A stretch of 64,000 nucleotides of DNA. Source: Eledone cirrhosa (taxonomy: Eukaryota). The stretch is taken from positions 37,634,001 through 37,698,000 of the forward strand of contig OZ024750.1 of assembly GCA_964016885.1 (NCBI GenBank), read 5' to 3'. The notes beneath the pieces are model-generated. The model did not search any database. It had not been told where the DNA came from and worked only from the letters and a program-made list of their open reading frames with translations. Positions 5,262 to 64,000 of this stretch are shown one piece after another. A program made the translations under genes and the position numbers. The first letter of the stretch is position 1, and each line of letters begins with the position of its first letter.

Positions 5262-6650
5262 TGGGGGGGGGGGGGGGTCCCAGCCCTGGTGGACAGAATA
5301 GAAGCGTTTCCCCGGAGGATGGTGAGGGAGATGCACTGGAAAAGCCATTCCAGCTTGCGAGGCTCACACCTGCGGCTGGCCAACTCTGTGCCGAGTCGGA
5401 AGGTGGCCCTAGGGCCAAAGACACCAGAAGTCTCCACTGCTACGGGTAGCCAACTCCGTGGTGAGTAGAGAGGTCGTCCTAGGGCCAAAGACACCAGAAG
5501 TCTCCACTGCTACGGGTAGCCAACTCCGTGGTGAGTAGAGAGGTCGTCCTAGGGCCAAAGACACCAGAAGTCTCCACTGCTACGGGTAGCCAACTCCATG
5601 GTGAGTAGAGAGGTCGTCCTAGGGCCAAAGACACCAGAAGTCTCCACTGCTACGGGTAGCCAACTCCGTGGTGAGTAGAGAGGTCGTCCTAGGGCCAAAG
5701 ACACCAGAAGTCTCCACTGCTACGGGTAGCCAACTCCATGGTGAGTAGAGAGGTCGTCCTAGGGCCAAAGACACCAGAAGTCTCCACTGCTACGGGTAGC
5801 CAACTCCGTGGTGAGTAGAGAGGTCGTCCTAGGGCCAAAGACACCAGAAGTCTCCACTGCTACGGGTAGCCAACTCCGTGGTGAGTAGAGAGGTCGTCCT
5901 AGGGCCAAAGACACCAGAAGTCTCCACTGCTACGGGTAGCCAACTCCATGGTGAGTAGAGAGGTCGTCCTAGGGCCAAAGACACCAGAAGTCTCCACTGC
6001 TACGGGTAGCCAACTCCGTGGTGAGTAGAGAGGTCGTCCTAGGGCCAAAGACACCAGAAGTCTCCACTGCTACGGGTAGCCAACTCCGTGGTGAGTAGAG
6101 AGGTCGTCCTAGGGCCAAAGATACCAGAAGTCTCCACTGCTACGGGTAGCCAACTCCATGGTGAGTAGAGAGGTCGTCCTAGGGCCAAAGACACCAGAAG
6201 TCTCCACTGCTACGGGTAGCCAACTCCGTGGTGAGTAGAGAGGTCGTCCTAGGGCCAAAGACACCAGAAGTCTCCACTGCTACGGGTAGCCAACTCCGTG
6301 GTGAGTAGAGAGGTCGTCCTAGGGCCAAGGACACCTGAAGTCTCCACTGCTACGGGTAGCCAACTCCGTGGTGAGTAGAGAGGTCGTCCTAGGGCCAAGG
6401 ACACCAGAAGTCTCCACTGCTACGGGTAGCCAACTCCGTGGTGAGTAGGGAGGTGGTCCTAGGGCCAAGGACACCAGAAGTCTCCACTGCTACGGGTAGC
6501 CAACTCCGTGGTGAGTAGGGAGGTGGTCCTAGGGCCAAGGACACCTGAAGTCTCCACTGTTACGGGCTCGACCAGAAACCTGTCGGAGTGTGACTGATAT
6601 TTGGCGAGTTTACTCTCCTTGGCCTAAAGTGCAGCAGAGCCTGGGTTAAT
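5262..6650 (-). mobile_element. CRE-like non-LTR retrotransposon 3' fragment (restriction-like endonuclease C-terminus), expanded by an internal tandem array
   Basis: The minus strand reads PGSAAL*AKESKLAKYQSHSDRFLVEPVTVETSGVLGP on the right of the array, and PVAVETSGVFGP...EPRKLEWLFQCISLTILRGNASIL on the left. This fits the K..KY...P.AVET.G...S....RGNA signature of CRE-type elements. Confidence 0.8.
5379..6566. repeat. 70-bp tandem repeat, about 16.5 near-identical copies plus a diverged partial lead-in
   Basis: Unit AGGGCCAAAGACACCAGAAGTCTCCACTGCTACGGGTAGCCAACTCCGTGGTGAGTAGAGAGGTCGTCCT at 5411, 5481 and so on up to 6531 (partial). Confidence 0.98.
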
Positions 6651-6834
6651 TAAAAGTTTTACACTGTAGCTTTCACCGACTTTTGCCTCTATGGCAGTAG
6701 GATCTTGTGTGAGGGAGATTTGTTTTCTATTTCTTTTAGGTACACCAACAGTTATAGTGGCTTCCATGACATACGTACATACATACTACATACACACACA
6801 TGTATGAGTGTGAGTGTGTGTGTGTAAGACTATT

Positions 6835-6990: not shown

Positions 6991-7008
6991 TCACTTATAC
7001 TACTATAC

Positions 7009-7935: not shown

Positions 7936-8084
7936 TATATACACACACACATGTATCTAAGAACGCTGACACACACACGCATGCACACATATATACACAG
8001 CCCATTACGACTTTTGTGAAAGAGACAGAGAAAAAGAAGTAACATTGAGGACGGAAGAGAGTTAAGAAGTGTGTAAAAAAAAAT

Positions 8085-9368: not shown

Positions 9369-10109
9369 CTAACAGCTATTAAATTCGATCAACTCTTGTA
9401 AAACTCTAGAGTTTTTAATATAATTTTTATTGATTTGCCAAAACTTTTGAAAGTTTTCGGGCATGTCTTCTATTTCAAGCAAAATGTTATAAACCTTCAT
9501 AAACAGTGACCTGGGATATGAAGTATCGTATTTTTTAAACACACTCTCCGTCCTTGTCCAGTTATTCTCGCTATCGTTAAACACGTCTAAATCCTTAAGC
9601 AGATATTCAAGTAGTTTTATACATTTTATACGTTCTGCAAATCTCACAAATTGAATGTTGCCTTTAAAATCATTCCCAGGAAACGGCTGTTTTTGGAATA
9701 TCTCCAAATTGTCAAAATTTTCTCGAGGTAAAATATTTCTATTTTCTCTCCACAAGTTAAAATCTTTTTCAATAATTTGACAACAATGGGATTTTCCAAT
9801 GCGGAAAAAAAAAAGTTTTAGTTCGTTCACAGTCTCCTCATCCCCAACATATTTCTTACAGATATAGTACTTAAGTAGAACAGAACATATACGACGTATA
9901 TTCTGAGGGTAAGTTTCTTCTACCTCACGAACAAAATGTGGATTAAAACCCATATATGCACTAAGTTTCACAATATCCTCCATATCATACACGTTTCTAG
10001 AAAGTTTTTCCAAGAAATCAATTTGAAAAAATCCGGAAGTAATATCTTCACCATTTCTATGGAGTGGTTCACCAGCCATCTCTATATCCAACATCACACT
10101 TTGTCGCAT
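9369..10109 (-). CDS. Uninterrupted 246-aa ORF with a death-domain-like N-terminal half and a possible second degenerate helical repeat
   Basis: It is the longest ORF in the window and is intact in AT-rich DNA. Residues ~30-116, FLEKLSRNV..EDIVKLSAYMGFNPHFVREVEETYPQNIRRICSVLLKYY...EETVNELKLFFFRIGKSHCCQIIE, follow the death-domain pattern LA..LG.....I..Ie..yp......mL..W....aT...L...L..igr.d. The true start may be M6 or M11. Confidence 0.6.
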   Translation of the reverse strand: MRQSVMLDIEMAGEPLHRNGEDITSGFFQIDFLEKLSRNVYDMEDIVKLSAYMGFNPHFVREVEETYPQNIRRICSVLLKYYICKKYVGDEETVNELKLFFFRIGKSHCCQIIEKDFNLWRENRNILPRENFDNLEIFQKQPFPGNDFKGNIQFVRFAERIKCIKLLEYLLKDLDVFNDSENNWTRTESVFKKYDTSYPRSLFMKVYNILLEIEDMPENFQKFWQINKNYIKNSRVLQELIEFNSC

Positions 10110-10209
10110 AGAATTACAGCCCTTTAGGATCTGAGTTCAAATAGAATTACAGCCCTTTAGGATCTGAGTTCAAATAGAATTACAGCCCTTTAGGATCTGA
10201 GTTCAAATA
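10108..10209 (+). repeat. 33-bp x3 tandem repeat derived from the SINE head (B-box)
   Basis: ATAGAATTACAGCCCTTTAGGATCTGAGTTCAA at 10108, 10141 and 10174. Its reverse complement matches SINE TTGAACTCAGATCGTAAAGGGACGTAA (378-404) and TTGAACTCAGACCATAAAGGGCCATAA (about 17095-17121). Confidence 0.9.
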
Positions 10210-10702
10210 CCGCAGCGATAAATTCAACAAGCACGGAAGTTATGTCAAGACATACCTGCCCAACCAAGTTTCAGCCAGTAACGCAGTGAATAAAGAAATA
10301 TTTTTTTTATCCCGTTAATAAAATAAGGTGAATTACCTTGAATAAATAATGAATGAATATTATATAATTTATCTACTAAATTTTGTAATACATGATTAAA
10401 CATAAATAATTTAATGTATTGCTTTATTTTAAAAAGTTTCAACTTCCGGTTATACTACCATACCAACACTATAAATAAAATTCTCCGGAGAAACGCCTTC
10501 TCCATTCTGTCCGTGAGGAGGCCAGCACGTGCGACCCCATTTGTTTACCATACAGTGATGGGGAGAGCGAGAGAGATGGACTCGATGACAGAAAACCTAG
10601 TTTCATTTTCGAGGACGTTAAACTTAACCTATGCCCATACATATATACATACACATGATGGCTGCCCCCCTCGTTATCGAGTATGGCCATTGCACGAGGA
10701 GA

Positions 10703-10763: not shown

Positions 10764-10837
<74 letters not shown>

Positions 10838-10893
10838 TATATATATATACACACACACATATACATTAATAACAATAATAATAATAATAATAA
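10703..10893. repeat. Compound microsatellite: A-rich, (AT)n, (AC)n, (AAT)n
   Basis: Directly visible. The (AT)n run spans about 10768-10826. Confidence 0.95.
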
Positions 10894-13800
10894 CAACACA
10901 TAAGCAGGTAATACACACATCTAGGACCACATACAACACACAAGAAGGTAATACATACATCTAGGACCACATACAACACACCAGCAGGTAATACACACAT
11001 CTAGGACCACATACAACACATAAGCAGGTAATACATACATCTAGGGCTACATACAACACACAAGCAGGTAATACACACATCTAGGACCACATACAACACA
11101 CCAGCAGGTAATACACACATCTAGGACCACATACAACACACCAGCAGGTAATACACACATCTAGGACCACATACAACACATAAGCAGGTAATACACACAT
11201 CTAGGACCACATACAACACACAAGCAGGTAATACATACATCTAGGACCACATACAATACATACATAAGCAGGTAATACATACATCTAGGACAACATATAA
11301 CACACAACCAGGTAAAACACATATCTAGGACCACATACAACACATAAGCAGGTAATACACACATCTAGGGCCACATACAACGCACCAGCAGGTAATACAC
11401 ACATCTAGGACCACATGCACCACATAAGCAGGTAATACATACATCTCTAGGACCACATACAACACACAAGCAGGTAATACATACATCTAGGACCACATAC
11501 AACACACCAGCAGGTAATACACACATCTAGGACCACATACAACACACCAGCAGGTAATACATACATCTAGGACCACATACAACACACAAGCAGGTAATAC
11601 ATACATCTAGGACCACATATAACACACCAGCAGGTAATACACACATCTAGGACCACATACAACACACCAGCAGGTAATACACACATCTAGGACCACAAAC
11701 AACACACCAGCAGGTAATAGACACATCTAGGACCACATACAACACACAAGCAGGTAATACATACATCTAGGACCACATACAATACATACATAAGCAGGTA
11801 ATACATACATCTAGGACAACATATAAAACACAACCAGGTAAAACACATATCTAGGACCACATACAACACATAAGCAGGTAATACACACATCTAGGGCCAC
11901 ATACAACGCACCAGCAGGTAATACACACATCTAGGACCACATGCACCACATAAGCAGGTAATACATACATCTCTAGGACCACATACAACACACAAGCAGG
12001 TAATACATACATCTAGGACCACATACAACACACCAGCAGGTAATACACACATCTAGGACCACATACAACACACAAACAGGTAACACACACATCTAGGACC
12101 ACATACAACACACCAGCAGGTAATACACACATCTAGGACCACATACATCACACAACCAGGTAATACACACATCTAGGAACACATACAACACACAAACAGG
12201 TAACACACACATCTAGGACCACATACAACACACAAGCAGGTAATACACAAATCTAGGACCACATACAACACACAAGCAGGTAATATACACATCTAGGACC
12301 ACATACAACACACAAGCAAGTAATACACACATCTAGGAACACATACAACACACAAACAGGTAACACACACATCTAGGACCACACAACACACAAGCAGGTA
12401 ATACATACATCTAGGACCACATATAACACACCAGCAGGTAATACACACATCTAGGACCACATACAACACACCAGCAGGTAATACACACAGCTGGGACCAT
12501 ATACAACACACCAGCAGGTAATACACACATCTAGGACCACAAACAACACACCAGCAGGTAATACACACATCTAGGACCACATACAACACACCAGCAGGTA
12601 ATACATACATCTAGGACCACATACAACACACCAGCAGGTAATACACACATCTTGGACCACATACAACACATAAGCAGGTAATACATGCATCTAGGACCAC
12701 ATACAACACACAAGCAGGTAATACACACATCTAGGACCACATACATCACACAACCAGGTAATACACACATCTAGGACCACATACAACACAAGCAGGTAAT
12801 ATACGCATCTAGGACCACATACAACACACAAGCAGGTAATACACACACATCTAGGACCACATACAACACATAAGCAGGTAATACACACATCTTGGACCAC
12901 ATACAACACATAAGCAGGTAATACATACATCTAGGACCACATACATCACACAACCAGGTAATACACACATCTAGGAACACATACAACACACAAACAGGTA
13001 ACACACACATCTAGGACCACATACAACACACAACACACAACACACAAGCAGGTAATACACACATCTAGGACCACATACAACACATAAGCAGGTAATACAT
13101 ACATCTAGGGCTACATACAACACACAAGCAGGTAATACACACATCTAGGACCACATACAACACACCAGCAGGTAATACACACATCTAGGACCACATACAA
13201 CACACCAGCAGGTAATACACACATCTAGGACCACATACAACACATAAGCAGGTAATACACACATCTAGGACCACATACAACACACAAGCAGGTAATACAT
13301 ACATCTAGGACCACATACAATACATACATAAACAGGTAATACATACATCTAGGACAACATATAACACACAACCAGGTAAAACACATATCTAGGACCACAT
13401 ACAACACATAAGCAGGTAATACACACATCTAGGGCCACATACAACGCACCAGCAGGTAATACACACATCTAGGACCACATGCACCACATAAGCAGGTAAT
13501 ACATACATCTCTAGGACCACATACAACACACAAGCAGGTAATACATACATCTAGGACCACATACAACACACCAGCAGGTAATACACACATCTAGGACCAC
13601 ATACAACACACCAGCAGGTAATACATACATCTAGGACCACATACAACACACAAGCAGGTAATACATACATCTAGGACCACATATAACACACCAGCAGGTA
13701 ATACACACATCTAGGACCACATACAACACACCAGCAGGTAATACACACATCTAGGTCCACAAACAACACACCAGCAGGTAATAGACACATCTAGGACCAC

Positions 13801-14969
13801 ATACAACACACAAGCAGGTAATACATACATCTAGGACCACATACAATACATACATAAGCAGGTAATACATACATCTAGGACAACATATAAAACACAACCA
13901 GGTAAAACACATATCTAGGACCACATACAACACATAAGCAGGTAATACACACATCTAGGGCCACATACAACGCACCAGCAGGTAATACACACATCTAGGA
14001 CCACATGCACCACATAAGCAGGTAATACATAAATCTCTAGGACCACATACAACACACAAGCAGGTAATACATACATCTAGGACCACATACAACACACCAG
14101 CAGGTAATACACACATCTAGGACCACATACAACACACAAACAGGTAACACACACATCTAGGACCACATACATCACACAACCAGGTAATACACACATCTAG
14201 GAACACATACAACACACAAACAGGTAACACACACATCTAGGACCACATACAACACACAAGCAGGTAATACACAAATCTAGGACCACATACAACACACAAG
14301 CAGGTAATATACACATCTAGGACCACATACAACACACAAGCAAGTAATACACACATCTAGGAACACATACAACACACAAACAGGTAACACACACATCTAG
14401 GACCACACAACACACAAGCAGGTAATACATACATCTAGGACCACAAACAACACACCAGCAGGTAATACACACATCTAGGACCACATACAACACACCAGCA
14501 GGTAATACATACATCTAGGACCACATACAACACACCAGCAGGTAATACACACATCTTGGACCACATACAACACATAAGCAGGTAATACATGCATCTAGGA
14601 CCACATACAACACACAAGCAGGTAATACACACATCTAGGACCACATACATCACACAACCAGGTAATACACACATCTAGGACCACATACAACACAAGCAGG
14701 TAATATACGCATCTAGGACCACATACAACACACAAGCAGGTAATACACACACATCTAGGACCACATACAACACATAAGCAGGTAATACACACATCTTGGA
14801 CCACATACAACACATAAGCAGGTAATACATACATCTAGGACCACATACATCACACAACCAGGTAATACACACATCTAGGAACACATACAACACACAAACA
14901 GGTAACACATACATCTAGGACCACACACAACACACAAGCAGGTAATACGCCCATCTAGGACCACATACA
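10893..14969. repeat. 40-bp minisatellite array A, about 100 copies
   Basis: Unit CTAGGACCACATACAACACACAAGCAGGTAATACACACAT with small indel variants. It accounts for all the C/V/Y-rich minus-strand ORFs in this interval. Confidence 0.98.
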
Positions 14970-16265: not shown

Positions 16266-16398
16266 GGAGTCAATTTACTTTTCAATTTACATATATTTAT
16301 ATGCATACATATTTGAGTATAATACTAATACTCACACTACATATGCCAGCAGAAAACTACCCAAAGGGCTATTCTTCTGGTAGTATACATAACGACCG

Positions 16399-16766
16399 CA
16401 GTTGCAAGGTACCCCTGCATCCACGGTCCCGGTTATTCGCGGAATTTTCCTTAGAACCTAACTAATAATTGTTCGTGGAAACCACCACATATTCGCGGAA
16501 TCGTAAATATTTTCAGTGATATTTTAATGGCTTATTTCGTGGCAATATATATTTTTTAACGCTAAACTATTAATAACAATATACCGTATTCGGCGACCTA
16601 TTGGATGCCCCTTCGTATAAGATGCTCCCTCTTTTTTATTATATTTTACATTATATTTTGACATTTATAGGCATTTTTTATGGACGATGTCCAATATACT
16701 CGGTTTTCAACTCTTCGCGGGTGCTCTAGGAACGTAAACCCTCGCGATAACCGGCGGACAACTCTA
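16399..16766. mobile_element. Tigger/pogo-like MITE remnant
   Basis: Left CCGGTTATTCGCGG is an inverted match to right CGCGATAACCGG. The right end GGAACGTAAACCCTCGCGATAACCGGCGGACAACTCTA resembles Tigger-MITE termini ending at TA. A second pogo-like terminus, TACCGTATT...TATAAGATGC, lies inside at about 16582-16625. Confidence 0.55.
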
Positions 16767-16985
16767 TATGCAAATATGCATTTACAAATACACAGGTATG
16801 AACCAGTTCATACATGTGCTTAATATATCTATATTAAGAAATTTATTACATACATTTATTTGCACAAAGAAACGCCTTAATAAAATGGCTTTATTCTTTC
16901 TACGCAAAGAAAGACGATTGCAAGCTGTTTGAGAAAGGATGCATGGATCAGGCAGGAACATAGAGAAGTCAGGCAGGAACATAGA

Positions 16986-17157
16986 GAAGAAATAATTGTT
17001 TTTACTTTTGGTACAATGCCAGCAATTATTCCAGTGTATTACTGGTACTTTATTTTATCGACTCCGTAAGGATGAAAGTTAACCTCGGTGGGATTTGAAC
17101 TCAGACCATAAAGGGCCATAACTCTGTGCTGCAAAGCATGGCGTCCACCCTCTAACG
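16986..17157 (-). mobile_element. SINE copy of the same family as 262-525
   Basis: GAAGAAATAATTGTTTTTACTTTTGGTACAATGCCAGCAATT...TTTTATCGACTCCGTAAGGATGAAAG...GGATTTGAACTCAGACC. It is preceded by a 21-bp tandem duplication, TCAGGCAGGAACATAGAGAAG x2 (16948-16989). Confidence 0.8.
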
Positions 17158-17197
17158 AGAAAGAGAAAGATGACGACAACATCAGAGACACGAGGGA

Positions 17198-17510
17198 ATG
17201 AATGAAGAACAGAGGTATATGGTTTTAGAGCAAGCTAGACTAAGACAACAGGAGGGAAGAGAAAATATACTTCAAGATAAATGTTAAGAATATCTGGAGA
17301 AACAAAGACTCAGACATAAAGAAAGAAGAAATAATTTGGTTCCAGAAGAACACGCATTACATTGCCAGCGTGGCCAGCTTAGGCAACAGGAAAGGAGAGA
17401 CCACATACATAGGAATGAATGAGCACATTATCTTGAGCAGCAGGGAGATGAACATAGACTTAGAAAAGAAATCATGAATGCTGAAGAACTACATAGTGAG
17501 CGACGTATGA
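17198..17510 (+). pseudogene. Decayed coding stretch with 23-aa periodic R/E/Q-rich repeats (STPR-like, as at the N-terminus of many Helitron RepHel proteins)
   Basis: One frame from ATG 17198 reads MNEEQRYMVLEQARLRQQEGREN / ILQDKC*EYLEKQRLRHKERRNN / LVPEEHALHCQRGQLRQQERRDH / IHRNE*AHYLEQQGDEHRLRKEI / MNAEELHSERRM. The period is exactly 23 aa, with two in-frame stops. Confidence 0.65.
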
Positions 17511-20500
17511 CTAACCTGTACACTGTATGTGATGTACCATGAAGCTATGGCTAACCTGTACACTGTATGTGATGTACCATGAAGCTATGGCTAACCTGTA
17601 CACTGTATGTGATGTACCATGAAGCTATGACTAACCTGTACACTGTATGTGATGTACCATGAAGCTATGACTAACCTGTACACTGTATGTGATGTACCAT
17701 GAAGCTATGGCTAACCTGTACACTGTATGTGATGTACCATGAAGCTATGACTAACCTGTAAACTGTATGTGATGTACCATGAAGCTATGACTAACCTGTA
17801 CACTGTATGTGATGTACCATGAAGCTATGACTAACCTGTACACTGTATGTGATGTACCATGAAGCTATGGCTAAGCTGTACACTGTATGTGATGTACCAT
17901 GAAGCTATGGCTAACCTGTACACTGTATGTGATGTACCATGAAGCTATGACTAACCTGTACACTGTATGTGATGTACCATGAAGCTATGACTAACCTGTA
18001 CACTGTATGTGATGTACCATGAAGCTATGACTAACCTGTACACTGTATGTGATGTACCATGAAGCTATGGCTAACCTGTACACTGTATGTGATGTACCAA
18101 GAAGCTATGACTAACCTGTACACTGTATGTGATGTACCATGAAGCTATGACTAACCTGTACACTGTATGTGATGTACCATGAAGCTATGACTAACCTGTA
18201 CACTGTATGTGATGTACTATGAAGCTATGACTAACCTGTACACTGTATGTGATGTACCATGAAGCTATAGCTAACTTGTACACTGTATGTGATGTACCAT
18301 GAAGCTAAGGCTAACCTGTACACTGTATGTGATGTACCATGAAGCTATGGCTAACCTGTACACTGTATGTGATGTACCATGAAGCTATGACTAACATGTA
18401 CACTGTATGTGATGTACCATGAAGCTATGACTAACCTGTACACTGTATGTGATGTACTATGAAGCTATGACTAACCTGTACACTGTATGTGATGTACCAT
18501 GAAGCTATGACTAACCTGTACACTGTATGTGATGTACCATGAAGCTATGACTAACCTGTACACTGTATGTGATGTACCATGAAGCTATGACTAACCTGTA
18601 CACTGTATGTGATGTACCATGAAGCTATGGCTAACCTGTACACTGTATGTGATGTACCATGAAGCTATGACTAACCTGTACACTGTATGTGATGTACCAA
18701 GAAGCTATGACTAACCTGTACACTGTATGTGATGTACCATGAAGCTATGACTAACCTGTACACTGTATGTGATGTACCATGAAGCTATGACTAACCTGTA
18801 CACTGTATGTGATGTACTATGAAGCTATGACTAACCTGTACACTGTATGTGATGTACCATGAAGCTATGACTAACCTGTACACTGTATGTGATGTACCAT
18901 GAAGCTATAGCTAACTTGTACACTGTATGTGATGTACCATGAAGCTATGGCTAACCTGTACACTGTATGTGATGTACCATGAAGCTATGACTAACCTGTA
19001 CACTGTATGTGATGTACCATGAAGCTATGGCTAACCTGTACACTGTATGTGATGTACCATGAAGCTATGGCTAACCTGTACACTGTATGTGATGTACCAT
19101 GAAGCTATGACTAATATGTACACTGTATGTGATGTACCATGAAGCTATGACTAACCTGTACACTATATGTGATGTACCATGAAGCTATGGCTAACCTGTA
19201 CACTGTATGTGATGTACCATGAAGCTATGAATAACCTGTACACTGTATCTGATGTAGCATGAAGCTATAGCTACGCTGTACACTGTATGTGATCTACCAT
19301 GAAGCTATGACTAACCTGTACACTGTATGTGATGTACCATGAAGCTATGACTAACCTGTACACTGTATGTGATGTACCATGAAGCTATGGCTAACCTGTA
19401 CACTGTATGTGATGTACCATGAAGCTATGACTAACCTGTACACTGTATGTGATGTACGTGAAGCTATGGCTAACCTGTACACTGTATGTGATGTACCATG
19501 AAGCTATGGCTAACCTGTACACTGTATGTGATCTACCATGAAGCTATGGCTAACCTGTACACTGTATGTGATGTACCATGAAGCTATGGCTAGCCTGTAC
19601 ACTGTATGTGATGTACCATGAAGATATGACTAACTTGTACACTGTATGTGATGTACCATGAAGCTATGGCTAACCTGTACACTGTATGTGATGTACCATG
19701 AAGCTATGACTAACCTGTACACTGTATATGATGTACCATGAAGCTATGACTAACCTGTACACTGTATGTGATGTACCATGAAGCTATGGCTAACATGTAC
19801 ACTGTATGTGATGTACCATGAAGCTATCACTAACCTGTACACTGTATGTGATGTACCATGAAGCTATGGCTAACCTGCACACTGTATGTGATGTACCATG
19901 AAGCTATGACTAACCTGTACACTGTATGTGATGTACCATGAAGCTATGGCTAACCGGTACACTGTATGTGATGTACCATGAAGCTATGGCTAACCTGTAC
20001 ACTGTATGTGATGTACCATGAAGCTATGACTAACCTGTACACTGTATGTGATGTACCATGAAGCTATGACTAACCTGTACACTGTATGTGCTGTACCATG
20101 AAGCTATGGCTAACCTGTACACTGTATGTGATGTACCATGAAGCTATGACTAACCTGTACACTGTATGTGATGTACCATGAAGCTATGACTAACCTGTAC
20201 ACTGTATGTGATGTACCATGAAGCTATGAATAACCTGTACACTGTATCTGATGTAGCATGAAGCTATAGCTACCCTGTACACTGTATGTGATCTACCATG
20301 AAGCTATGACTAACCTGTACACTGTATGTGATGTACCATGAAGCTATGACTAACCTGTACACTGTATGTGATGTACCATGAAGCTATGGCTAACCTGTAC
20401 ACTGTATGTGATGTACCATGAAGCTATGACTAACCTGTACACTGTATGTGATGTACGTGAAGCTATGGCTAACCTGTACACTGTATGTGATGTACCATGA

Positions 20501-50500: not shown

Positions 50501-53500
50501 CATGTACACTGTATGTGATGTACCATGAAGCTATGACTAACCTGTACACTGTATATGATGTACCATGAAGCTATAACTAACCTGTACACTGTATGTGATC
50601 TACCATGAAGCTATGGCTAACCTGTACACTGTATGTGATGTACCATGAAGCTATGGCTAACCTGTACACTGTATGTGATGTACCATGAAGCTATGACTAA
50701 CCTGTACACTTTATGTGATGTACCATGAAGCTATGACTAATCTGTACACTGTATGTGATGTACCATGAAGCTATGGCTAACCTGTACACTGTATGTGATG
50801 TACCATGAAGCTATGACTAACCTGTACACTGTATGTGATGTACCATGAAGCTATGACTAACCTGTACACTGTATGTAATGTACCATGAAGCTATGACTAA
50901 CCTGTACACTGTATGTGATGTACCATGAAGCTATGGCTAACCTGTACACTGTATGTGATGTACCATGAAGCTATGACTAACCTGTACACTGTATGTGATG
51001 TACCATGAAGCTATGGCTAACCTGTACACTGTATGTGATGTACCATGAAGCTATGGCTAATCTGTACACTGTATGTGATGTACCATGAAGCTATGACTAA
51101 CCTGTACACTGTATGTGATGTACCATGAAGCTATGACTAACCTGTACACTGTATGTGATGTACCATGAAGCTATGGCTAACCTGTACACTGTATGTGATG
51201 TACCATGAAGCTATGAATAACCTGTACACTGTATGTGATGTACCATGAATCTATGACTAACCTGTACACTGTATGTGATGTACCATGAAGCTATGGCTAA
51301 CCTGTACACTGTATGTGATGTACCATGAAGCTATGGCTAACCTGTACACTGTATGTGATGTACCATGAAGCTATGACTAACATGTACAATGTATGTGATG
51401 TACCATGAAGCTATGGCTAACCTGTACACTGTATGTGATGTACCATGAAGCTATGACTAACCTGTACACTGTATGTGATGTACCATGAAGCTATGACTAA
51501 CCTGTACACTGTATGTGATGTACCGTGAAGCTATGGCTAACCTGTACACTGTATGTGATGTACCATGAAGCTATGGCTAACCTGTACACTGTATGTGATG
51601 TACCATGAAGCTATGGCTAACCTGTACACTGTATGTGATGTACCATGAAGCTATGGCTAACATGTACACTGTATGTGATGTACCATGAAGCTATGACTAA
51701 CCTGTACACTGTATATGATGTACCATGAAGCTATAACTAACCTGTACACTGTATGTGATCTACCATGAAGCTATGGCTAACCTGTACACTGTATGTGATG
51801 TACCATGAAGCTATGGCTAACCTGTACACTGTATGTGATGTACCATGAAGCTATGACTAACCTGTACACTTTATGTGATGTACCATGAAGCTATGACTAA
51901 TCTGTACACTGTATGTGATGTACCATGAAGCTATGGCTAACCTGTACACTGTATGTGATGTACCATGAAGCTATGACTAACCTGTACACTGTATGTGATG
52001 TACCATGAAGCTATGACTAACCTGTACACTGTATGTAATGTACCATGAAGCTATGACTAACCTGTACACTGTATGTGATGTACCATGAAGCTATGGCTAA
52101 CCTGTACACTGTATGTGATGTACCATGAAGCTATGACTAACCTGTACACCGTATGTGATGTACCCTGAAGCTATGGCTAACCTGTACACTGTATGTGATG
52201 TACCATGAAGCTATGGCTAACCTGTACACTGTATGTGATGTACCATGAAGCTATGACTAACCTGTACACTGTATGTGATATACCATGAAGCTATGACTAA
52301 CCTGTACACTGTATGTGATGTACCGTGAAGCTATGGCTAACCTGTACACTGTATGTGATGTACCATGAAGCTATGGGTAACCTGTACACTGTATGTGATG
52401 TACCATGAAGCTATGGCTAACCTGTACAATGTATGTTATGTACCATGAAGCTATGGCTAACCTGTACACTGTATGTGATGTACCATGAAGATATGACTAA
52501 CCTGTACACTGTATGTGATGTACCATGAAGCTATGGCTAACCTGTACACTGTATGTGATGTACCATGAAGCTATGACTAACCTGTACACTGTATATGATG
52601 TACCATGAAGCTATGACTAACCTGAACACTGTATGTGATGTACCATGAAGCTATGGCTAACATGTACACTGTATGTGATGTACCATGAAGCTATGACTAA
52701 TCTGTACACTGTATGTGATGTAACATGAAGCTATGGCTAACCTGCACACTGTATGTGATGTACCATGAAGCTATGACTAACCTGTACACTGTATGCGATG
52801 TACCATGAAGCTATGGCTAACCTGTACACTGTATGTGATGTACCATGAAGATATGACTAACCTGTACACTGTATGTGATGTACCATGAAGCTATGGCTAA
52901 CCTGTACACTGTATGTGATGTACCATGAAGCTATGGCTAACCTGTACACTGTATGTGATGTACCATGAAGCTATGGCTAACCTGTACACTGTATGTGATG
53001 TACCATGAAGATATGACTAACCTGTACACTGTATGTGATGTACCATGAAGCTATGGCTAAACTGTACACTGTATGTGATGTACCACGAAGCTATGACTAA
53101 CCTGTACACTGTATGTGATGTACCATGAAGCTATGAATAACCTGTACACTGTATCTGATGTACCATGAAGCTATAGCTAACCTGTACACTGTATGTGATC
53201 TACCATGAAGCTATGACTAACCTGTACACTGTATGTGATGTACCATGAAGCTATGGCTAACCTGTACACTGTATGTGATGTACCATGAAGCTATGACTAA
53301 CCTGTACACTGTATGTGATGTACCATGAAGCTATGACTAACCTAAAGACTGTATGTGATGTACCATGAAGCTATAGCTAACCTGTACACTGTATGTGATG
53401 TACCATGAAGCTATGACTAACCTGAAGACTGTATGTGATGTACCACGAAGCTATAGCTAACCTGTACACTGTATGTGATGTACCATGAAGCTATGAATAA

Positions 53501-56500
53501 CCTGTACGCTGTATGTGATGTACCATGAAGCTATGACTAACCTGTACACTGTATGTGATGTACCATGAAGCTATGGCTAACCTGTACACTGTATGTGATG
53601 TACCATGAAGCTATGGCTAACCTGTACACTGTATGTGATGTACCATGAAGCTATGACTAACATGTACAATGTATGTGATGTACCATGAAGCTATGACTAA
53701 CCTGTACACTGTATGTGATGTACTATGAAACTATGACTAACCTGTACACTGTATGTGAAGTACCATGACTCTATGACTAACCTGTACACTGTATGTGATG
53801 TACCATAAAGCTATGGCTAACCTCTACACTGTATCTGATGTACCATGAAGCTACGACTAACCTGTACACTGTATGTGATGTACCATGAAGCTATGGCTAA
53901 CCTGTACACTGTATGTGATGTACCATGAAGCTATAGCTAACCTGTACACTGTATGTGATGTACCATGAAGCTATGGCTAACCTGTACACTGTATGTGATG
54001 TACCATGAAGCTATGACTAACCTGTACACTGTATGTGATGTACCATGAAGCTATGACTAACCTGTACACTGTATGTGATGTACCATGAAGCTATGACTAA
54101 CCTGTACACTGTATGTGATGTACCATGAAGCTATGACTAACCTGTACACTGTATGTGATGTACCATGAAGCTATGACTAACCTGTACACTGTATGTGATG
54201 TACCATGAAGCTACGACTAACCTGTACACTGTATGTGATGTACCATGAAGCTATGACTAACCTGTACAATGTATGTGATGTACCATGAAGCTATAGCTAA
54301 CCTGTACACTGTATGTGATCTACCATGAAGCTATGGCTAACCCGTACACTGTATGTGCTGTAACATGAAGCTATGACTAACCTGTACACTGTATGTGATG
54401 TACCATGAAGCTACGACTAACCTGTACACTGTATGTGATGTACCATGAAGCTATGACTAACCTGTACACTGTACGTGATGTACCAGGAAGCTGTAGCTAA
54501 CCTGTACACTGTATGTGATCTACCATGAAGCTATGGCTAACCTGTACACTGTATGTGATGTACCATGAAGCTATGACTAACCTGTACACTGTATGTGATG
54601 TACCATGAAGCTATGACTAACCTGTACACTGTATGTAATGTACCATGAAGCTATGACTAACCTGTACACTGTATGTGATGTACCATGAAGCTATGGCTAA
54701 CCTGTACACTGTATGTGATGTACCATGAAGCTATGACTAACCTGTACACCGTATGTGATGTACCATGAAGCTATGGCTAACCTGTACACTGTATGTGATG
54801 TACCATGAAGCTATGGCTAGCCTGTACACTGTATGTGATGTACCATGAAGATATGACTAACCTGTACACAGTATGTGATGTACCATGAAGCTATGGCTAA
54901 CCTGTACACTGTATGTGATGTACCATGAAGCTATGAATAACCTGTACACTGTATCTGATGTACCATGAAGCTATAGCTAACCTGTACACTGTATGTGATC
55001 TACCATGAAGCTATGACTAACCTGTACACTGTATGTGATGTACCATGAAGCTATGGCTAACCTGTACACTGTATGTGATGTACCATGAAGCTATGACTAA
55101 CCTGTACACTGTATGTGATGTACCATGAAGCTATGACTAACCTAAAGACTGTATGTGATGTACCATGAAGCTATAGCTAACCTGTACACTGTATGTGATG
55201 TACCATGAAGCTATGACTAACCTGAAGACTGTATGTGATGTACCACGAAGCTATATCTAACCTGTACACTGTATGTGATGTACCATGAAGCTATGAATAA
55301 CCTGTACGCTGTATGTGATGTACCATGAAGCTATGACTAACCTGTACACTGTATGTGATGTACCATGAAGCTATGGCTAACCTGTACACTGTATGTGATG
55401 TACCATGAAGCTATGGCTAACCTGTACACTGTATGTGATGTACCATGAAGCTATGACTAACATGTACAATGTATGTGATGTACCATGAAGCTATGACTAA
55501 CCTGTACACTGTATGTGATGTACTATGAAACTATGACTAACCTGTACACTGTATGTGAAGTACCATGACTCTATGACTAACCTGTACACTGTATGTGATG
55601 TACCATAAAGCTATGGCTAACCTCTACACTGTATCTGATGTACCATGAAGCTACGACTAACCTGTACACTGTATGTGATGTACCATGAAGCTATGGCTAA
55701 CCTGTACACTGTATGTGATGTACCATGAAGCTATAGCTAACCTGTACACTGTATGTGATGTACCATGAAGCTATGGCTAACCTGTACACTGTATGTGATG
55801 TACCATGAAGCTATGACTAACCTGTACACTGTATGTGATGTACCATGAAGCTATGACTAACCTGTACACTGTATGTGATGTACCATGAAGCTATGACTAA
55901 CCTGTACACTGTATGTGATGTACCATGAAGCTATGACTAACCTGTACACTGTATGTGATGTACCATGAAGCTATGACTAACCTGTACACTGTATGTGATG
56001 TACCATGAAGCTACGACTAACCTGTACACTGTATGTGATGTACAATGAAGCTATGACTAACCTGTACAATGTATGTGATGTACCATGAAGCTATAGCTAA
56101 CCTGTACACTGTATGTGATCTACCATGAAGCTATGGCTAACCCGTACACTGTATGTGCTGTAACATGAAGCTATGACTAACCTGTACACTGTATGTGATG
56201 TACCATGAAGCTACGACTAACCTGTACACTGTATGTGATGTACCATGAAGCTATGACTAACCTGTACACTGTACGTGATGTACCAGGAAGCTGTAGCTAA
56301 CCTGTACACTGTATGTGATCTACCATGAAGCTATGGCTAACCTGTACACTGTATGTGATGTACCATGAAGCTATGACTAACCTGTACACTGTATGTGATG
56401 TACCATGAAGCTATGACTAACCTGTACACTGTATGTAATGTACCATGAAGCTATGACTAACCTGTACACTGTATGTGATGTACCATGAAGCTATGGCTAA

Positions 56501-59500
56501 CCTGTACACTGTATGTGATGTACCATGAAGCTATGACTAACCTGTACACCGTATGTGATGTACCATGAAGCTATGGCTAACCTGTACACTGTATGCGATG
56601 TACCATGAAGCTATGGCTAGCCTGTACACTGTATGTGATGTACCATGAAGATATGACTAACCTGTACACAGTATGTGATGTACCATGAAGCTATGGCTAA
56701 CCTGTACACTGTATGTGATGTACCATGAAGCTATGACTAACCTGTACCCTGTATATGATGTACCATGAAGCTATGACTAACCTGTACACTGTATGTGATG
56801 TACCATGAAGCTATGGCTAACATGTACACTGTATGTGATGTACCATGAAGCTATGACTAACCTGTACACTGTATGTGATGTACCATGAACCTATGGCTAA
56901 CCTGCACACTGTATGTGATGTACCATGAAGCTATGACTAACCTGTACACTGTATGTGATGTACCATGAAGCTATGGCTAACCTGTACACTGTATGTGATG
57001 TACCATGAAGCTATGGCTAACCTGTACACTGTATGTGATGTACCATGAAGCTATGACTAACCTGTACACTGTATGTGATGTACCATGAAGCTATGACTAA
57101 CCTGTACACTGTATGTGATGTACCATGAAGCTATGGCTAACCTGTACACTGTATGTGATGTACCATGAAGCTATGAATAACCTGTACACTGTATGTGATG
57201 TACCATGAATCTATGACTAACCTGTACACTGTATGTGATGTACCATGAAGCTATGGCTAACCTGTACACTGTATGTGATGTACCATGAAGCTATGGCTAA
57301 CCTGTACACTGTATGTGATGTACCATGAAGCTATGACTAACATGTACAATGTATGTGATGTACCATGAAGCTATGGCTAACCTGTACACTGTATGTGATG
57401 TACCATGAAGCTATGACTAACCTGTACACTGTATGTGATGTACCATGAACCTATGACTAACCTGTACACTGTATGTGATGTACCGTGAAGCTATGGCTAA
57501 CCTGTACACTGTATGTGATGTACCATGAAGCTATGGCTAACCTGTACACTGTATGTGATGTACCATGAAGCTATGGCTAACCTGTACACTGTATGTGATG
57601 TACCATGAAGCTATGGCTAACCTGTACACTGTATGTGATGTACCATGAAGATATGACTAACCTGTACACTGTATGTGATGTACCATGAAGCTATGGCTAA
57701 CCTGTACACTGTATGTGATGTACCATGAAGCTATGACTAACCTGTACACTGTGTATGATGTACCATGAAGCTATGACTAACCTGTACACTGTATGTGATG
57801 TACCATGAAGCTATGGCTAACATGTACACTGTATGTGATGTACCATGAAGCTATGACTAACCTGTACACTGTATGTGATGTACCATGAAGCTATAGCTAA
57901 CCTGTACACTGTATGTGATCTACCATGAAGCTATGGCTAACCTGTACACTGTATGTGATGTACCATGAAGCTATGGCTAACCTGTACACTGTATGTGATG
58001 TACCATGAAGCTATGACTAACCTGTACACTTTATGTGATGTACCATGAAGCTATGACTAATCTGTACACTGTATGTGATGTACCATGAAGCTATGGCTAA
58101 CCTGTACACTGTATGTGATGTACCATGAAGCTATGACTAACCTGTACACTGTATGTGATGTACCATGAAGCTATGACTAACCTGTACACTGTATGTAATG
58201 TACCATGAAGCTATGACTAACCTGTACACTGTATGTGATGTACCATGAAGCTATGGCTAACCTGTACACTGTATGTGATGTACCATGAAGCTATGACTAA
58301 CCTGTACACCGTATGTGATGTACCATGAAGCTATGGCTAACCTGTACACTGTATGTGATGTACCATGAAGCTATGGCTAACCTGTACACTGTATGTGATG
58401 TACCATGAAGCTATGACTAACCTGTACACTGTATGTGATGTACCATGAAGCTATGACTAACCTGTACACTGTATGTGATGTACCGTGAAGCTATGGCTAA
58501 CCTGTACACTGTATGTGATGTACCATGAAGCTATGGGTAACCTGTACACTGTATGTGATGTACCATGAAGCTATGGCTAACCTGTACACTGTATGTTATG
58601 TACCATGAAGCTATGGCTAACCTGTACACTGTATGTGATGTACCATGAAGCTATAGCTAACCTGTACACTGTATGTGATCTACCATGAAGCTATGGCTAA
58701 CCTGTACACTGTATGTGATGTAACATGAAGCTATGACTAACCTGTACACTGTATGTGATGTACCATGAAGCTACGACTAACCTGTACACTGTATGTGATG
58801 TACCATGAAGCTATGACTAACCTGTACACTGTATGTGATGTACCATGAAGCTATAGCTAACCTGTACACTGTATGTGATCTACCATGAAGCTATGGCTAA
58901 CCTGTACACTGTATGTGATGTACCATGAAGCTATGACTAACCTGTACACTGTATGTGATGTACCGTGAAGCTATGGCTAACCTGTACACTGTATGTGATG
59001 TACCATGAAGCTATGGCTAACCTGTACACTGTATGTGATGTACCATGAAGCTATGGCTAACCTGTACACTGTATGTGATGTACCATGAAGCTATGGCTAA
59101 CCTGTACACTGTATGTGATGTACCATGAAGATATGACTAACCTGTACAATGTATGTGATGTACCATGAAGCTATGGCTAACCTGTACACTGTATGTGATG
59201 TACCATGAAGCTATGACTAACCTGTACACTGTATATGATGTACCATGAAGCTATGACGAACCTGTACACTGTATGTGATGTACCATGAAGCTGTGGCTAA
59301 CATGTACACTGTATGTGATGTACCATGAAGCTATGACTAACCTGTACACTGTATGTGATGTACCATGAAGCTATAGCTAACCTGTACTCTGTATGTGATG
59401 TACCATGAAGCTATGACTAACATGTACACTGTACGTAATGTACCATGAAGCTATGGCTAACCTGTACACTGTATGTGATGTACCATGAAGCTATGGCTAA

Positions 59501-62500
59501 CCTGTACACTGTATGTGATGTACCATGAAGCTATGGCTAACCTGTACACTGTATGTGATGTACCATGAAGCTATGGCTAACCTGTACACTGTATGTGATG
59601 TACCATGAAGATATGACTAACCTGTACAATGTATGTGATGTACCATGAAGCTATGGCTAACCTGTACACTGTATGTGATGTACCATGAAGCTATGACTAA
59701 CCTGTACACTGTATGTGATGTACCGTGAAGCTATGGCTAACCTGTACACTGTATGTGATGTACCATGAAGCTATGGCTAACCTGTACACTGTATGTGATG
59801 TACCATGAAGCTATGGCTAACCTGTACACTGTATGTGATGTACCATGAAGCTATGGCTAACCTGTACACTGTATGTGATGTACCATGAAGATATGACTAA
59901 CCTGTACAATGTATGTGATGTACCATGAAGCTATGGCTAACCTGTACACTGTATGTGATGTACCATGAAGCTATGGCTAACCTGTACACTGTATGTGATG
60001 TACCATGAAGATATGACTAACCTGTACACTGTATGTGATGTACCATGAAGCTATGGCTAAACTGTACACTGTATGTGATGTACCACGAAGCTATGACTAA
60101 CCTGTACACTGTATGTGATGTACCATGAAGCTATGAATAACCTGTACACTGTATCTGATGTACCATGAAGCTATAGCTAACCTGTACACTGTATGTGATC
60201 TACCATGAAGCTATGACTAACCTGTACACTGTATGTGATGTACCATGAAGCTATGACTAACCTGTACACTTTATGTGATGTACCATGAAGCTATGACTAA
60301 CCTGTACACTGTATGTGATGTACCATGAAGCTATGACTAACCTAAAGACTGTATGTGATGTACCATGAAGCTATAGCTAACCTGTACACTGTATGTGATG
60401 TACCATGAAGCTATGACTAACCTGAAGACTGTATGTGATGTACCACGAAGCTATAGCTAACCTGTACACTGTATGTGATGTACCATGAAGCTATGAATAA
60501 CCTGTACGCTGTATGTGATGTACCATGAAGCTATGACTAACCTGTACACTGTATGTGATGTACCATGAAGCTATGGCTAACCTGTACACTGTATGTGATG
60601 TACCATGAAGCTATGGCTAACCTGTACACTGTATGTGATGTACCATGAAGCTATGACTAACATGTACAATGTATGTGATGTACCATGAAGCTATGACTAA
60701 CCTGTACACTGTATGTGATGTACTATGAAACTATGACTAACCTGTACACTGTATGTGAAGTACCATGACTCTATGACTAACCTGTACACTGTATGTGATG
60801 TACCATAAAGCTATGGCTAACCTCTACACTGTATCTGATGTACCATGAAGCTACGACTAACCTGTACACTGTATGTGATGTACCATGAAGCTATGGCTAA
60901 CCTGTACACTGTATGTGATGTACCATGAAGCTATAGCTAACCTGTACACTGTATGTGATGTACCATGAAGCTATGGCTAACCTGTACACTGTATGTGATG
61001 TACCATGAAGCTATGACTAACCTGTACACTGTATGTGATGTACCATGAAGCTATGACTAACCTGTACACTGTATGTGATGTACCATGAAGCTATGACTAA
61101 CCTGTACACTGTATGTGATGTACCATGAAGCTATGACTAACCTGTACACTGTATGTGATGTACCATGAAGCTATGACTAACCTGTACACTGTATGTGATG
61201 TACCATGAAGCTACGACTAACCTGTACACTGTATGTGATGTACCATGAAGCTATGACTAACCTGTACAATGTATGTGATGTACCATGAAGCTATAGCTAA
61301 CCTGTACACTGTATGTGATCTACCATGAAGCTATGGCTAACCCGTACACTGTATGTGATGTAACATGAAGCTATGACTAACCTGTACACTGTATGTGATG
61401 TACCATGAAGCTACGACTAACCTGTACACTGTATGTGATGTACCATGAAGCTATGACTAACCTGTACACTGTACGTGATGTACCAGGAAGCTGTAGCTAA
61501 CCTGTACACTGTATGTGATCTACCATGAAGCTATGGCTAACCTGTACACTGTATGTGATGTACCATGAAGCTATGACTAACCTGTACACTGTATGTGATG
61601 TACCATGAAGCTATGACTAACCTGTACACTGTATGTAATGTACCATGAAGCTATGACTAACCTGTACACTGTATGTGATGTACCATGAAGCTATGGCTAA
61701 CCTGTACACTGTATGTGATGTACCATGAAGCTATGACTAACCTGTACACCGTATGTGATGTACCATGAAGCTATGGCTAACCTGTACACTGTATGTGATG
61801 TACCATGAAGCTATGGCTAGCCTGTACACTGTATGTGATGTACCATGAAGATATGACTAACCTGTACACAGTATGTGATGTACCATGAAGCTATGGCTAA
61901 TCTGTACACTGTATGTGATGTACCATGAAGCTATGACTAACCTGTACACTGTATATGATGTACCATGAAGCTATGACTAACCTGTACACTGTATGTGATG
62001 TACCATGAAGCTATGGCTAACATGTACACTGTATGTGATGTACCATGAAGCTATGACTAACATGTACAATGTATGTGATGTACCATGAAGCTATGACTAA
62101 CCTGTACACTGTATGTGATGTACTATGAAACTATGACTAACCTGTACACTGTATGTGAAGTACCATGACTCTATGACTAACCTGTACACTGTATGTGATG
62201 TACCATAAAGCTATGGCTAACCTCTACACTGTATCTGATGTACCATGAAGCTACGACTAACCTGTACACTGTATGTGATGTACCATGAAGCTATGGCTAA
62301 CCTGTACACTGTATGTGATGTACCATGAAGCTATAGCTAACCTGTACACTGTATGTGATGTACCATGAAGCTATGGCTAACCTGTACACTGTATGTGATG
62401 TACCATGAAGCTATGACTAACCTGTACACTGTATGTGATGTACCATGAAGCTATGACTAACCTGTACACTGTATGTGATGTACCATGAAGCTATGACTAA

Positions 62501-64000
62501 CCTGTACACTGTATGTGATGTACCATGAAGCTATGACTAACCTGTACACTGTATGTGATGTACCATGAAGCTATGACTAACCTGTACACTGTATGTGATG
62601 TACCATGAAGCTACGACTAACCTGTACACTGTATGTGATGTACCATGAAGCTATGACTAACCTGTACAATGTATGTGATGTACCATGAAGCTATAGCTAA
62701 CCTGTACACTGTATGTGATCTACCATGAAGCTATGGCTAACCCGTACACTGTATGTGATGTAACATGAAGCTATGACTAACCTGTACACTGTATGTGATG
62801 TACCATGAAGCTACGACTAACCTGTACACTGTATGTGATGTACCATGAAGCTATGACTAACCTGTACACTGTACGTGATGTACCAGGAAGCTGTAGCTAA
62901 CCTGTACACTGTATGTGATCTACCATGAAGCTATGGCTAACCTGTACACTGTATGTGATGTACCATGAAGCTATGACTAACCTGTACACTGTATGTGATG
63001 TACCATGAAGCTATGACTAACCTGTACACTGTATGTAATGTACCATGAAGCTATGACTAACCTGTACACTGTATGTGATGTACCATGAAGCTATGGCTAA
63101 CCTGTACACTGTATGTGATGTACCATGAAGCTATGACTAACCTGTACACCGTATGTGATGTACCATGAAGCTATGGCTAACCTGTACACTGTATGTGATG
63201 TACCATGAAGCTATGGCTAGCCTGTACACTGTATGTGATGTACCATGAAGATATGACTAACCTGTACACAGTATGTGATGTACCATGAAGCTATGGCTAA
63301 TCTGTACACTGTATGTGATGTACCATGAAGCTATGACTAACCTGTACACTGTATATGATGTACCATGAAGCTATGACTAACCTGTACACTGTATGTGATG
63401 TACCATGAAGCTATGGCTAACATGTACACTGTATGTGATGTACCATGAAGCTATGTCTAACCTGTACACTGTATGTGATGTACCATGAACCTATGGCTAA
63501 CCTGCACACTGTATGTGATGTACCATGAAGCTATGACTAACCTGTACACTGTATGTGATGTACCATGAAGCTATGGCTAACCTGTACACTGTATGTGATG
63601 TACCATGAAGCTATGGCTAACCTGTACACTGTATGTGATGTACCATGAAGCTATGACTAACCTGTACACTGTATGTGATGTACCATGAAGCTATGACTAA
63701 ACTGTACACTGTATGTGATGTACCATGAAGCTATGGCTAACCTGTACACTGTATGTGATGTACCATGAAGCTATGAATAACCTGTACACTGTATGTGATG
63801 TACCATGAATCTATGACTAACCTGTACACTGTATGTGATGTACCATGAAGCTATGGCTAACCTGTACACTGTATGTCATGTACCATGAAGCTATGGCTAA
63901 CCTGTACACTGTATGTGATGTACCATGAAGCTATGACTAACATGTACAATGTATGTGATGTACCATGAAGCTATGGCTAACCTGTACACTGTATGTGATG
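17506..64000. repeat. 40-bp satellite array B, over 46 kb, about 1,160 units, running off the window end
   Basis: Consensus CTAACCTGTACACTGTATGTGATGTACCATGAAGCTATGR, head-to-tail with low divergence and only a few indels. No insertions or inversions were seen. Confidence 0.99.

What the first reader, a model, noticed from the sequence alone, without database searches (positions are those of the whole stretch)
5379..64000. Four tandem arrays of increasing size, each starting in or against a transposon
Seen: a 33-bp x3 repeat copies a SINE B-box region (10108). A 70-bp x16.5 array copies CRE endonuclease coding sequence (5379-6566). A 40-bp x~100 array lies at a CRE 3' end (10893-14969). A 40-bp x>1,100 array starts inside an STPR-like decayed ORF (17506). 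Shorter duplications (144 bp at 262, 21 bp at 16948) also involve or abut SINE copies. Established: satellites can arise from TE sub-sequences, including Helitrons. Inference: this locus repeatedly turns TE fragments into arrays and preserves stages from 3 copies to over 1,000 copies with HORs, together with the parental flanks.
Basis: partly seen in the sequence, partly recalled or inferred. Interest (0 to 1): 0.75.

Follow-up and report, generated by a model that had tools for sequence, protein, structure and literature searches.

The report
Giant satellite grown inside dead Helitron
All four repeats are copies of pieces of jumping genes, and the largest is a 794-kb array of one 40-base stretch of a Helitron gene, flanked by matching parts of that Helitron and likely split by an inversion, but the clustering of the four is probably ordinary for this repeat-rich genome rather than a special hotspot.

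Summary
The four arrays are real, and each unit is a single, non-tandem stretch in other copies of a transposon. The 40-bp giant copies Helitron RepHel coding DNA on the opposite strand. It runs unbroken for 794,160 bp (19,858 units), and its head-to-tail junction word occurs only at this locus (8,954 + 33 matches genome-wide, all here). Helitron sequence surrounds it: the 5′ part in the window, then an inverted middle piece, a 61-copy sister array and the next Helitron stretch 794 kb away. It was likely born in place, then split by an inversion; one half likely did most of the growing. The 'locus factory' and 'preserved stages' readings are not supported. The two CRE-like units are tandem at other loci too (≥78 kb on C1, ≥16 kb on C3), and three arrays in 17.5 kb is within the small-contig background (P 0.23). 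A count limited to arrays with a traced parent leaves some local excess (P 0.01, biased). The higher-order repeats are irregular local duplications, not one fixed period. This scan already noted similar Helitron-born satellites elsewhere in this genome (unchecked).

The parts
262..533 (-). Partial SINE doublet, 144-bp period, 1.8 copies
   Evidence: Local alignment (about 120 near-identical bases); SINE doublets also occur in unrelated loci L044 and L110
5200..6760 (-). Decayed 3′ part of a non-LTR retrotransposon with a C-terminal endonuclease-like domain (CRE-like; clade name recalled), family 1; ends approximate
   Evidence: Translations match the C-terminal region of reverse-transcriptase proteins, E 4e-15 within the 62 fetched proteins; 5,977 first-look candidates in the genome
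5379..6566 (-). 70-bp x17 array: the family's 79-bp endonuclease-coding segment minus 9 bp, with both parental flanks in place
   Evidence: units differ by 1.3 of 70 bases on average; the same stretch is tandem in 2 of 30 and 5 of 20 anchor-picked copies
10087..10224 (-). Short SINE fragment holding the 33-bp x3.1 array (10108-10209), which ends in the B-box-like word (box name recalled)
   Evidence: Unit plus flanks match SINE copies at 76-84% over 49-55 bases; 0 of 52 SINE cores in 400 kb of random DNA had a neighbour within 60 bp
10893..14969 (-). 40-bp x~101 array from the 3′ untranslated end of CRE-like family 2; the element's own tail is missing and microsatellites lie there instead
   Evidence: Single copy at the matched site in 23 of 24 best family copies, 2 copies in L063; 5 copies in L083; 11 in L298 and a ≥78-kb array on C1
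14930..16270 (-). High-copy composite element, CRE-like family 2 (endonuclease-like tail plus further shared sequence)
   Evidence: One alignment over about 1,340 bases in 15 of 24 loci at 80-83%; 4,296 first-look candidates; match to C-terminal regions of the fetched proteins, E 1e-29
16383..17505 (+). 5′ part of a dead Helitron, including the N-terminal repeat region of RepHel
   Evidence: 79-85% to L081 and L085; family copies hit Pfam Helitron_like_N and PIF1
16948..16989 (+). 21-bp perfect duplication in Helitron sequence, directly before the SINE insert
16992..17158 (-). SINE copy inserted in the Helitron
   Evidence: The Helitron alignment breaks here and resumes at 17158; the insert matches SINE copies at 82-88%
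17505..17507 (.). Inferred inversion breakpoint: Helitron N-terminal coding sequence joins the array at a unit boundary with 1-2 shared bases
   Evidence: Family copies continue into the Helitron ORF here; junction printed
17506..64000 (-). First 46.5 kb of the 794,160-bp 40-bp satellite (array A); the unit is Helitron RepHel coding sequence (KLHGTSHTVYRLA region) on the minus strand
   Evidence: ends at G000:C10:38,445,665

Best explanation
Each of the four arrays repeats a short stretch of the transposon family it sits in, and each likely began as an independent local duplication in a dead copy and grew in place by ordinary recombination or replication errors. For the giant: a 40-bp stretch of Helitron RepHel coding DNA was likely duplicated inside one copy on C10 and became a small array. 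An inversion then likely broke once in the Helitron's N-terminal coding region (losing about 340-410 bp) and once inside the array. That left the shown order: 5′ Helitron, inverted array A (794 kb), inverted middle Helitron piece (1.7 kb), array B (61 copies, sense), next Helitron stretch. A likely did most of its growing afterwards, through repeated 2-20 kb local duplications. The neighbouring arrays are likely background: small contigs of this genome carry about 9 such arrays per 100 kb, and the CRE-like units tandemise at other loci. Shown: unit origin, flanks, order, size, single locus. Inferred: one Helitron copy, the inversion, its timing, the growth mechanism.
For: Unit origin: 6 single monomers in 5 inspected Helitron loci differ from the array consensus at 3-4 of 40 bases; 38 of 68 rows are single ~40-bp hits away from this locus. 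Flanks: the far end of A runs straight into the parental Helitron bases, and B's end into the next codons. The three Helitron pieces tile reference copy L081 in order (1880-2816, 4685→3158 inverted, 4645-5186), sharing only the unit itself. Single locus: the genome-wide junction count (8,954 forward, 33 reverse; reversed control 0) equals the count in this locus. Continuity: no N and no gap over 70 bp in 794 kb, where random DNA would hold about 103 SINE cores. Separate histories: two variants at 10 and 9 of 54 units in B are at 0.2% and 0.7% in A; two at 15.5% and 12.7% in A are at 1 and 0 of 54 in B. A uniform break in a finished array would fall this near an end with chance 0.006. Growth: 47% of 12-monomer words recur, and block similarity falls with distance. 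Background: 19 arrays in 200 kb on small contigs, 8 in 200 kb on large, 8 and 9 per 100 kb in the flanks; P(≥3 in 17.5 kb) 0.23.
Against: Counting only arrays whose unit I could trace to a single copy elsewhere (5 of 19 on small contigs, 6 of 17 in the flanks), three in 17.5 kb has P 0.01-0.016. That library was 0.97 Mb and enriched for the window's own families, so the rate is a lower bound, and the window was picked from 1,671 noted windows; a mild local excess is still not excluded. Counting the giant as a fourth array gives P 0.06-0.09. Variant spectra also drift within A (its first 500 units nearly lack one variant common in the rest), so the A-B difference alone does not date the inversion. 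The Helitron unit has only 1 bp of flanking identity, so the first duplication step is unexplained. The missing 340-410 bp and the helicase part of this copy were not found within 100 kb on either side.
Confidence: 0.8

Rival explanations
1. This locus is a hotspot that repeatedly converts transposon fragments into arrays, and the four arrays show stages of it.
For: All four units trace to transposons. Against the traced-only background P is 0.01-0.016. Two more traced arrays (50 bp x58, 94 bp x5.6) lie about 25 kb before the window and a 79-bp x8.6 array just after the far end.
Against: Total array density is not above background (P 0.19-0.23). The 100-kb flanks match random small-contig DNA. 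The same CRE-like units form larger arrays on C1 and C3. The four arrays share no sequence or parent.
Confidence: 0.1
2. The Helitron made or carried the array itself (rolling-circle over-replication or template switching at insertion), with the inversion a product of the same event.
For: The array lies within Helitron sequence with an inverted internal piece. Aberrant rolling-circle amplification is a proposed route (PMC12628747, passages).
Against: No tandem junction word exists at any other locus. Units differ by 2.4 of 40 bases pairwise while the flanks are 15-20% from other copies, so the array was homogenised long after insertion. The route described in those passages repeats truncated elements with many 5′ ends, not one inner 40-mer.
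Confidence: 0.07
3. A ready-made satellite was pasted into a Helitron from elsewhere.
For: At the window junction the array abuts unrelated coding sequence in the opposite orientation. An earlier unchecked note proposes this route for another locus.
Against: At both outer ends the array runs into the exact parental neighbours of the unit, and no donor array exists in the assembly.
Confidence: 0.02
4. For the two CRE-like arrays only: the seed was a short tandem already carried by a subfamily master, not a new duplication at this site.
For: Many copies share the 79-bp boundaries. Three 40-bp arrays elsewhere start with a similar variant first unit.
Against: Units of 68, 69, 71 and 95 bp with other boundaries occur over the same stretch, which points to repeated independent duplications. 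Most anchor-picked copies are single.
Confidence: 0.35

Closest known systems
Satellites formed from sub-segments of transposons (review PMC12628747; 12 passages read)
   Same: [quoted passage not shown]
   Different: Here size, both parental flanks and an internal inversion are all visible in one assembly.
Helitron/Helentron central-repeat satellites: DINE-TR1 in Drosophila, Cg170 and others in the Pacific oyster (passages in PMC12628747 and PMC6947457; primary papers seen only as search listings or reference entries)
   Same: Satellite grown from within a Helitron.
   Different: Those start from tandem repeats already carried by many elements. This unit is single-copy RepHel coding DNA in the family copies inspected, and the tandem form exists at one locus only.
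Maize CRM1TR and CRM4TR (PMC3648361; abstract and outline only)
   Same: Arrays derived wholly from a transposon; two nearby loci hold distinct variants and are homogenised locally; similar regions of related elements are tandemised more than once.
   Different: LTR retrotransposon parent and much longer units; here a 40-bp unit, a Helitron parent, and the two arrays are halves of one inferred original.
SINE- and LINE-derived minisatellites, Haber-Louis short-flanking-repeat model (passages in PMC6947457)
   Same: The 33-, 40- and 70-bp arrays are minisatellites inside retroelement copies.
   Different: Shared bases at the unit ends are about 1-4 here, below the 5-10 bp of that model.

Membership tests
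Transposon-derived satellite | Unit present as a single, non-tandem stretch inside dispersed copies of an element | tested here: met
   Helitron 40-mer: 6 monomers in 5 of 5 inspected loci. CRE-like 40-mer: 23 of 24. 79-mer: single in 25 of 30, tandem in 2, no core found in 3. 33-mer: SINE copies.
Transposon-derived satellite | Array continuous with the unit's parental neighbours (born in place) | tested here: met
   Both sides for the Helitron array, the 70-mer and the 33-mer; one side only for the CRE-like 40-mer.
Helitron (parent element) | RepHel coding: Rep/HUH region followed by PIF1 helicase | tested here: met
   Family copies hit Helitron_like_N (E 2e-14) and PIF1 (E 6e-16). The C10 copy aligns to them at 79-91%; its helicase part was not found.
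Helitron (parent element) | 5′ TC, 3′ hairpin and CTRR termini (recalled) | not tested
   Termini were not mapped; this copy is cut at the 3′ side.
DINE-TR1-type central-repeat satellite | Short tandem array already carried by many dispersed elements | tested here: not met
   The tandem junction word occurs only at this locus.
CRE clade of non-LTR retrotransposons | Reverse transcriptase followed by a C-terminal restriction-like endonuclease region | tested here: met
   Window translations align to the C-terminal region of proteins with RVT_1; the endonuclease label rests on recalled motifs.
CRE clade of non-LTR retrotransposons | Groups with named CRE elements in a reverse-transcriptase tree | not testable with these tools
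   No named transposon library is held; the clade name is recalled.
tRNA-derived SINE | Dispersed short element with A and B boxes | tested here: inconclusive
   High copy number shown (52 cores in 400 kb); box words read by eye from recall.
Canonical higher-order repeat array | One multi-monomer period repeated along the array | tested here: not met
   The best lag differs in nearly every one of 20 blocks, with match fractions 0.12-0.45 against 0.03 shuffled: local duplications, no fixed period.
Centromeric satellite | CENP-A occupancy | not testable with these tools
   Needs chromatin data.
STPR repeat | Match to the STPR profile | tested here: inconclusive
   No Pfam hit at E ≤ 10 on a family copy; a 23-residue rhythm is visible.

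The most novel reading that the evidence does not exclude
One inversion split a newborn Helitron-derived array into twins of the same age and origin; one stayed at 2.5 kb while the other swelled 320-fold into a chromosome-specific 794-kb satellite with no transposon insertion, because it became the young centromere or a selected heterochromatin core of this chromosome.
Probability: 0.1. Interest if true: 0.8.

Novelty: new member of a known kind. Interest (0 to 1): 0.4.

Why it matters
Satellite origins are usually erased. Here the parent sequence, both flanks, the breakpoints and a small sister array survive around a 794-kb single-locus satellite, so two arrays of likely common origin can be compared after very unequal growth. 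That makes growth rate and homogenisation testable once relatives or second haplotypes are at hand. The route itself is well described, and this genome seems to use it often, so the locus is a clean example and not a new mechanism.

Tried and rejected
Locus hotspot: tested against 400 kb of random stretches and 200 kb of flanks; not supported overall. The random draw used 17 contigs and lower-bound lengths, so it is rough. Small versus large contigs for the 79-mer: 5 of 20 against 2 of 18, Fisher P 0.41; no support. The 8 of 19 tandem loci are biased, because that query ran into the second unit, and were not used as a rate. Fixed higher-order period: not found. Other individuals: RAD-seq runs X12-X14 gave almost only parental single-copy reads, with one tandem read in X13; the CRE-like satellite was equally thin in those runs, so no verdict. 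Other organisms: shares of 0.04-0.07 in eight runs; one laid (X4) gave a single 151-base contig at depth 2.9, not taken as evidence. No RNA holder listed. Contig depths in X1 and X2 are very high over the unit but are no copy number, and that sample may be the assembly's source. The ORF at 9369-10136 stayed unnamed; an atlas look-alike search gave no answer. A solved-structure search of the CRE-like tail found nothing useful. Literature: the search for satellite + Helitron + RepHel + inversion and two CRE searches returned no papers; searches listed no paper whose title or abstract start concerns octopus satellites of this kind. Most subscription papers are not searched, so this is no proof of absence. 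No supplements were read.
Full report
Setting. The window is G000:C10:37,634,001-37,698,000 in a 3.0-Gb assembly; C10 is 55.3 Mb. The SINE family looks like that of octopuses (recalled; earlier notes also say 'likely octopus'). No related genome is held.

Observation. Tandem Repeats Finder confirms the four arrays and the 21-bp duplication at the stated places; the 144-bp duplication is a 1.8-copy SINE doublet.

The giant array: origin. The 356 bases before 17506 belong to a dispersed family (55 matches from 40 of 111 candidates scored). In other copies the sequence after the junction continues into an ORF and not into the repeat. Family copies hit Pfam Helitron_like_N and PIF1 (4 of 8 ORFs, 3 above the curated cut-off). 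A search with three units found 38 single ~40-bp hits away from this locus among 68 rows. In five Helitron loci examined, the unit lies as an isolated stretch of RepHel coding sequence about 1.8 kb past the junction (in L081), on the opposite strand, 3-4 bases from the array consensus.

The giant array: extent. I fetched the whole region. Array A spans C10:37,651,506-38,445,665: 794,160 bp and 19,858 units, with no N, no gap over 70 bp and one inverted monomer. Random DNA of that length would hold about 103 SINE cores. The exact head-to-tail junction word has 8,954 forward and 33 reverse matches in the whole assembly, and the same numbers within this locus, so this tandem form is confined to it.

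The far side. A ends in the parental Helitron bases. Then follow 1.7 kb of inverted Helitron, array B (38,447,364-38,449,845; 61.5 copies, opposite orientation to A) and the next Helitron codons in sense. On reference copy L081 the pieces map to 1880-2816, 4685→3158 and 4645-5186; on L085 the order is the same. I infer one Helitron copy, an array born at the unit, and an inversion with one break in the N-terminal coding region (about 340-410 bp lost) and one inside the array. The joins show 1-2 shared bases or one extra base, as end-joining repair would leave (inference).

Timing and growth. Units of A differ by 2.4 of 40 bases pairwise; the flanks are 79-91% identical to other copies and carry stops and a SINE. 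So homogenisation is much younger than the insertion. A and B have different common variants, and a uniform break would fall this close to an end of a finished array with chance 0.006. I put about 75% on most growth coming after the inversion. Against this: variant spectra also drift within A. A has no single higher-order period; lags of about 40-500 monomers recur locally, 47% of 12-monomer words occur more than once, and 40-kb blocks share words mainly with neighbours. That fits repeated local duplication by unequal exchange or repair synthesis, which I did not test apart.

The three small arrays. The 70-mer is a 79-bp endonuclease-coding segment of a CRE-like element minus 9 bp, with both flanks. 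Its junction word has 634 matches genome-wide. The stretch is tandem in 2 of 30 anchor-picked copies on C1-C2 (3 had no core) and 5 of 20 on smaller contigs, with units of 68, 69, 79 and 95 bp, and forms a ≥16-kb array on C3. The 40-mer at 10893-14969 is a single stretch near the 3′ end in 23 of the 24 best copies of a second CRE-like family (24 of 4,296 candidates). Its junction word has 3,364 matches, 18 of them here, and a ≥78-kb array on C1 keeps the intact element tail. The 33-mer is part of a 140-bp SINE fragment.

Is the cluster special? With period ≥25, ≥3 copies, ≥85% identity and a complexity filter, 20 random 10-kb stretches on small contigs held 19 arrays (21% of bases; 3 stretches wholly satellite), 20 on large contigs held 8, and the 100-kb flanks 8 and 9. 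Three arrays in 17.5 kb give P 0.19-0.23; counting the giant as a fourth, 0.06-0.09. Restricting to arrays whose unit I could trace (5 of 19; 6 of 17) gives P 0.01-0.016, but the 0.97-Mb library favoured the window's own families and the window was selected from 1,671 noted windows. I read the cluster as background with at most a mild excess. The four arrays have four unrelated parents, so they are not stages of one lineage.

Reads. Three runs of one sample hold half the sampled words and may be the assembly's source. RAD-seq of other individuals under-samples both satellites, so presence and size elsewhere stay open.

Comparison. Tandemisation of almost any transposon part is described (PMC12628747, 12 passages), as are SINE-derived minisatellites (PMC6947457, 12 passages) and locally homogenised retrotransposon-derived arrays in maize (PMC3648361, abstract and outline). 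The giant works like these and is a member of transposon-derived satellites. It is not of the DINE-TR1 type, because the tandem is not carried by dispersed elements. Earlier unchecked notes of this scan report other Helitron-born satellites in this genome, one from coding DNA at 160 kb; none near this locus or with the small 40-mer.

Verdict. Observation confirmed; transposon origin shown; hotspot and stage series not supported. The lasting value is one unusually complete record of satellite birth, with a small twin array. New member of a known kind; interest 0.4.

Noticed in passing
window 9369-10136 (-): Open frame of 255 codons (246 from the ATG at 10109) with no Pfam or database match; one weak relative at C5:49,698,709 (E 5e-5) inside a 387-codon open frame. 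Its first codons overlap the SINE fragment beside the 33-bp array.
   Followed up: partly
window 3517-4950 (+) and about 7050-7900 (-): Decayed PIF1 helicase fragments (Pfam E 1e-20 for 4302-4769), likely of another Helitron family; no DNA match to the family that made the big array.
   Followed up: partly
G000:C25:26.4-27.2 Mb and C18:25.0-25.1 Mb: The single 40-bp Helitron stretch recurs every 10-100 kb on one strand, suggesting long tandem duplications that contain a Helitron copy.
   Followed up: no
G000:C1 from about 14,444,700 to past 14,523,000 (L297, L300): Array of the CRE-like 40-mer, at least 78 kb and under about 116 kb, with the element's tail intact on its left; continuity only sampled.
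   Followed up: partly
G000:C3 from about 19,451,800 to past 19,468,000 (L299, L305): Array of the CRE-like 79-mer, at least 16 kb.
   Followed up: partly
G000:C10:37,838,570: One inverted monomer with a short partial duplication inside array A, at the unit's palindromic word.
   Followed up: partly
L117, L121, L182, L172, L225: Other segments of CRE-like family 1 also form arrays: 77-78 bp and 228 bp from the 3′ end, 71 and 95 bp from the endonuclease region.
   Followed up: partly
L149, L169, L170, L182: Random 10-kb stretches filled wholly or mostly by unrelated satellites of 40, 80, 38 and 228 bp; small contigs had 21% of sampled bases in arrays against 4% on large ones.
   Followed up: no
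G000:C10:38,450,535-38,450,975 (approx.): A (TA)n tract flanked by an inverted repeat of about 75 bases just past the Helitron's cut 3′ side.
   Followed up: no
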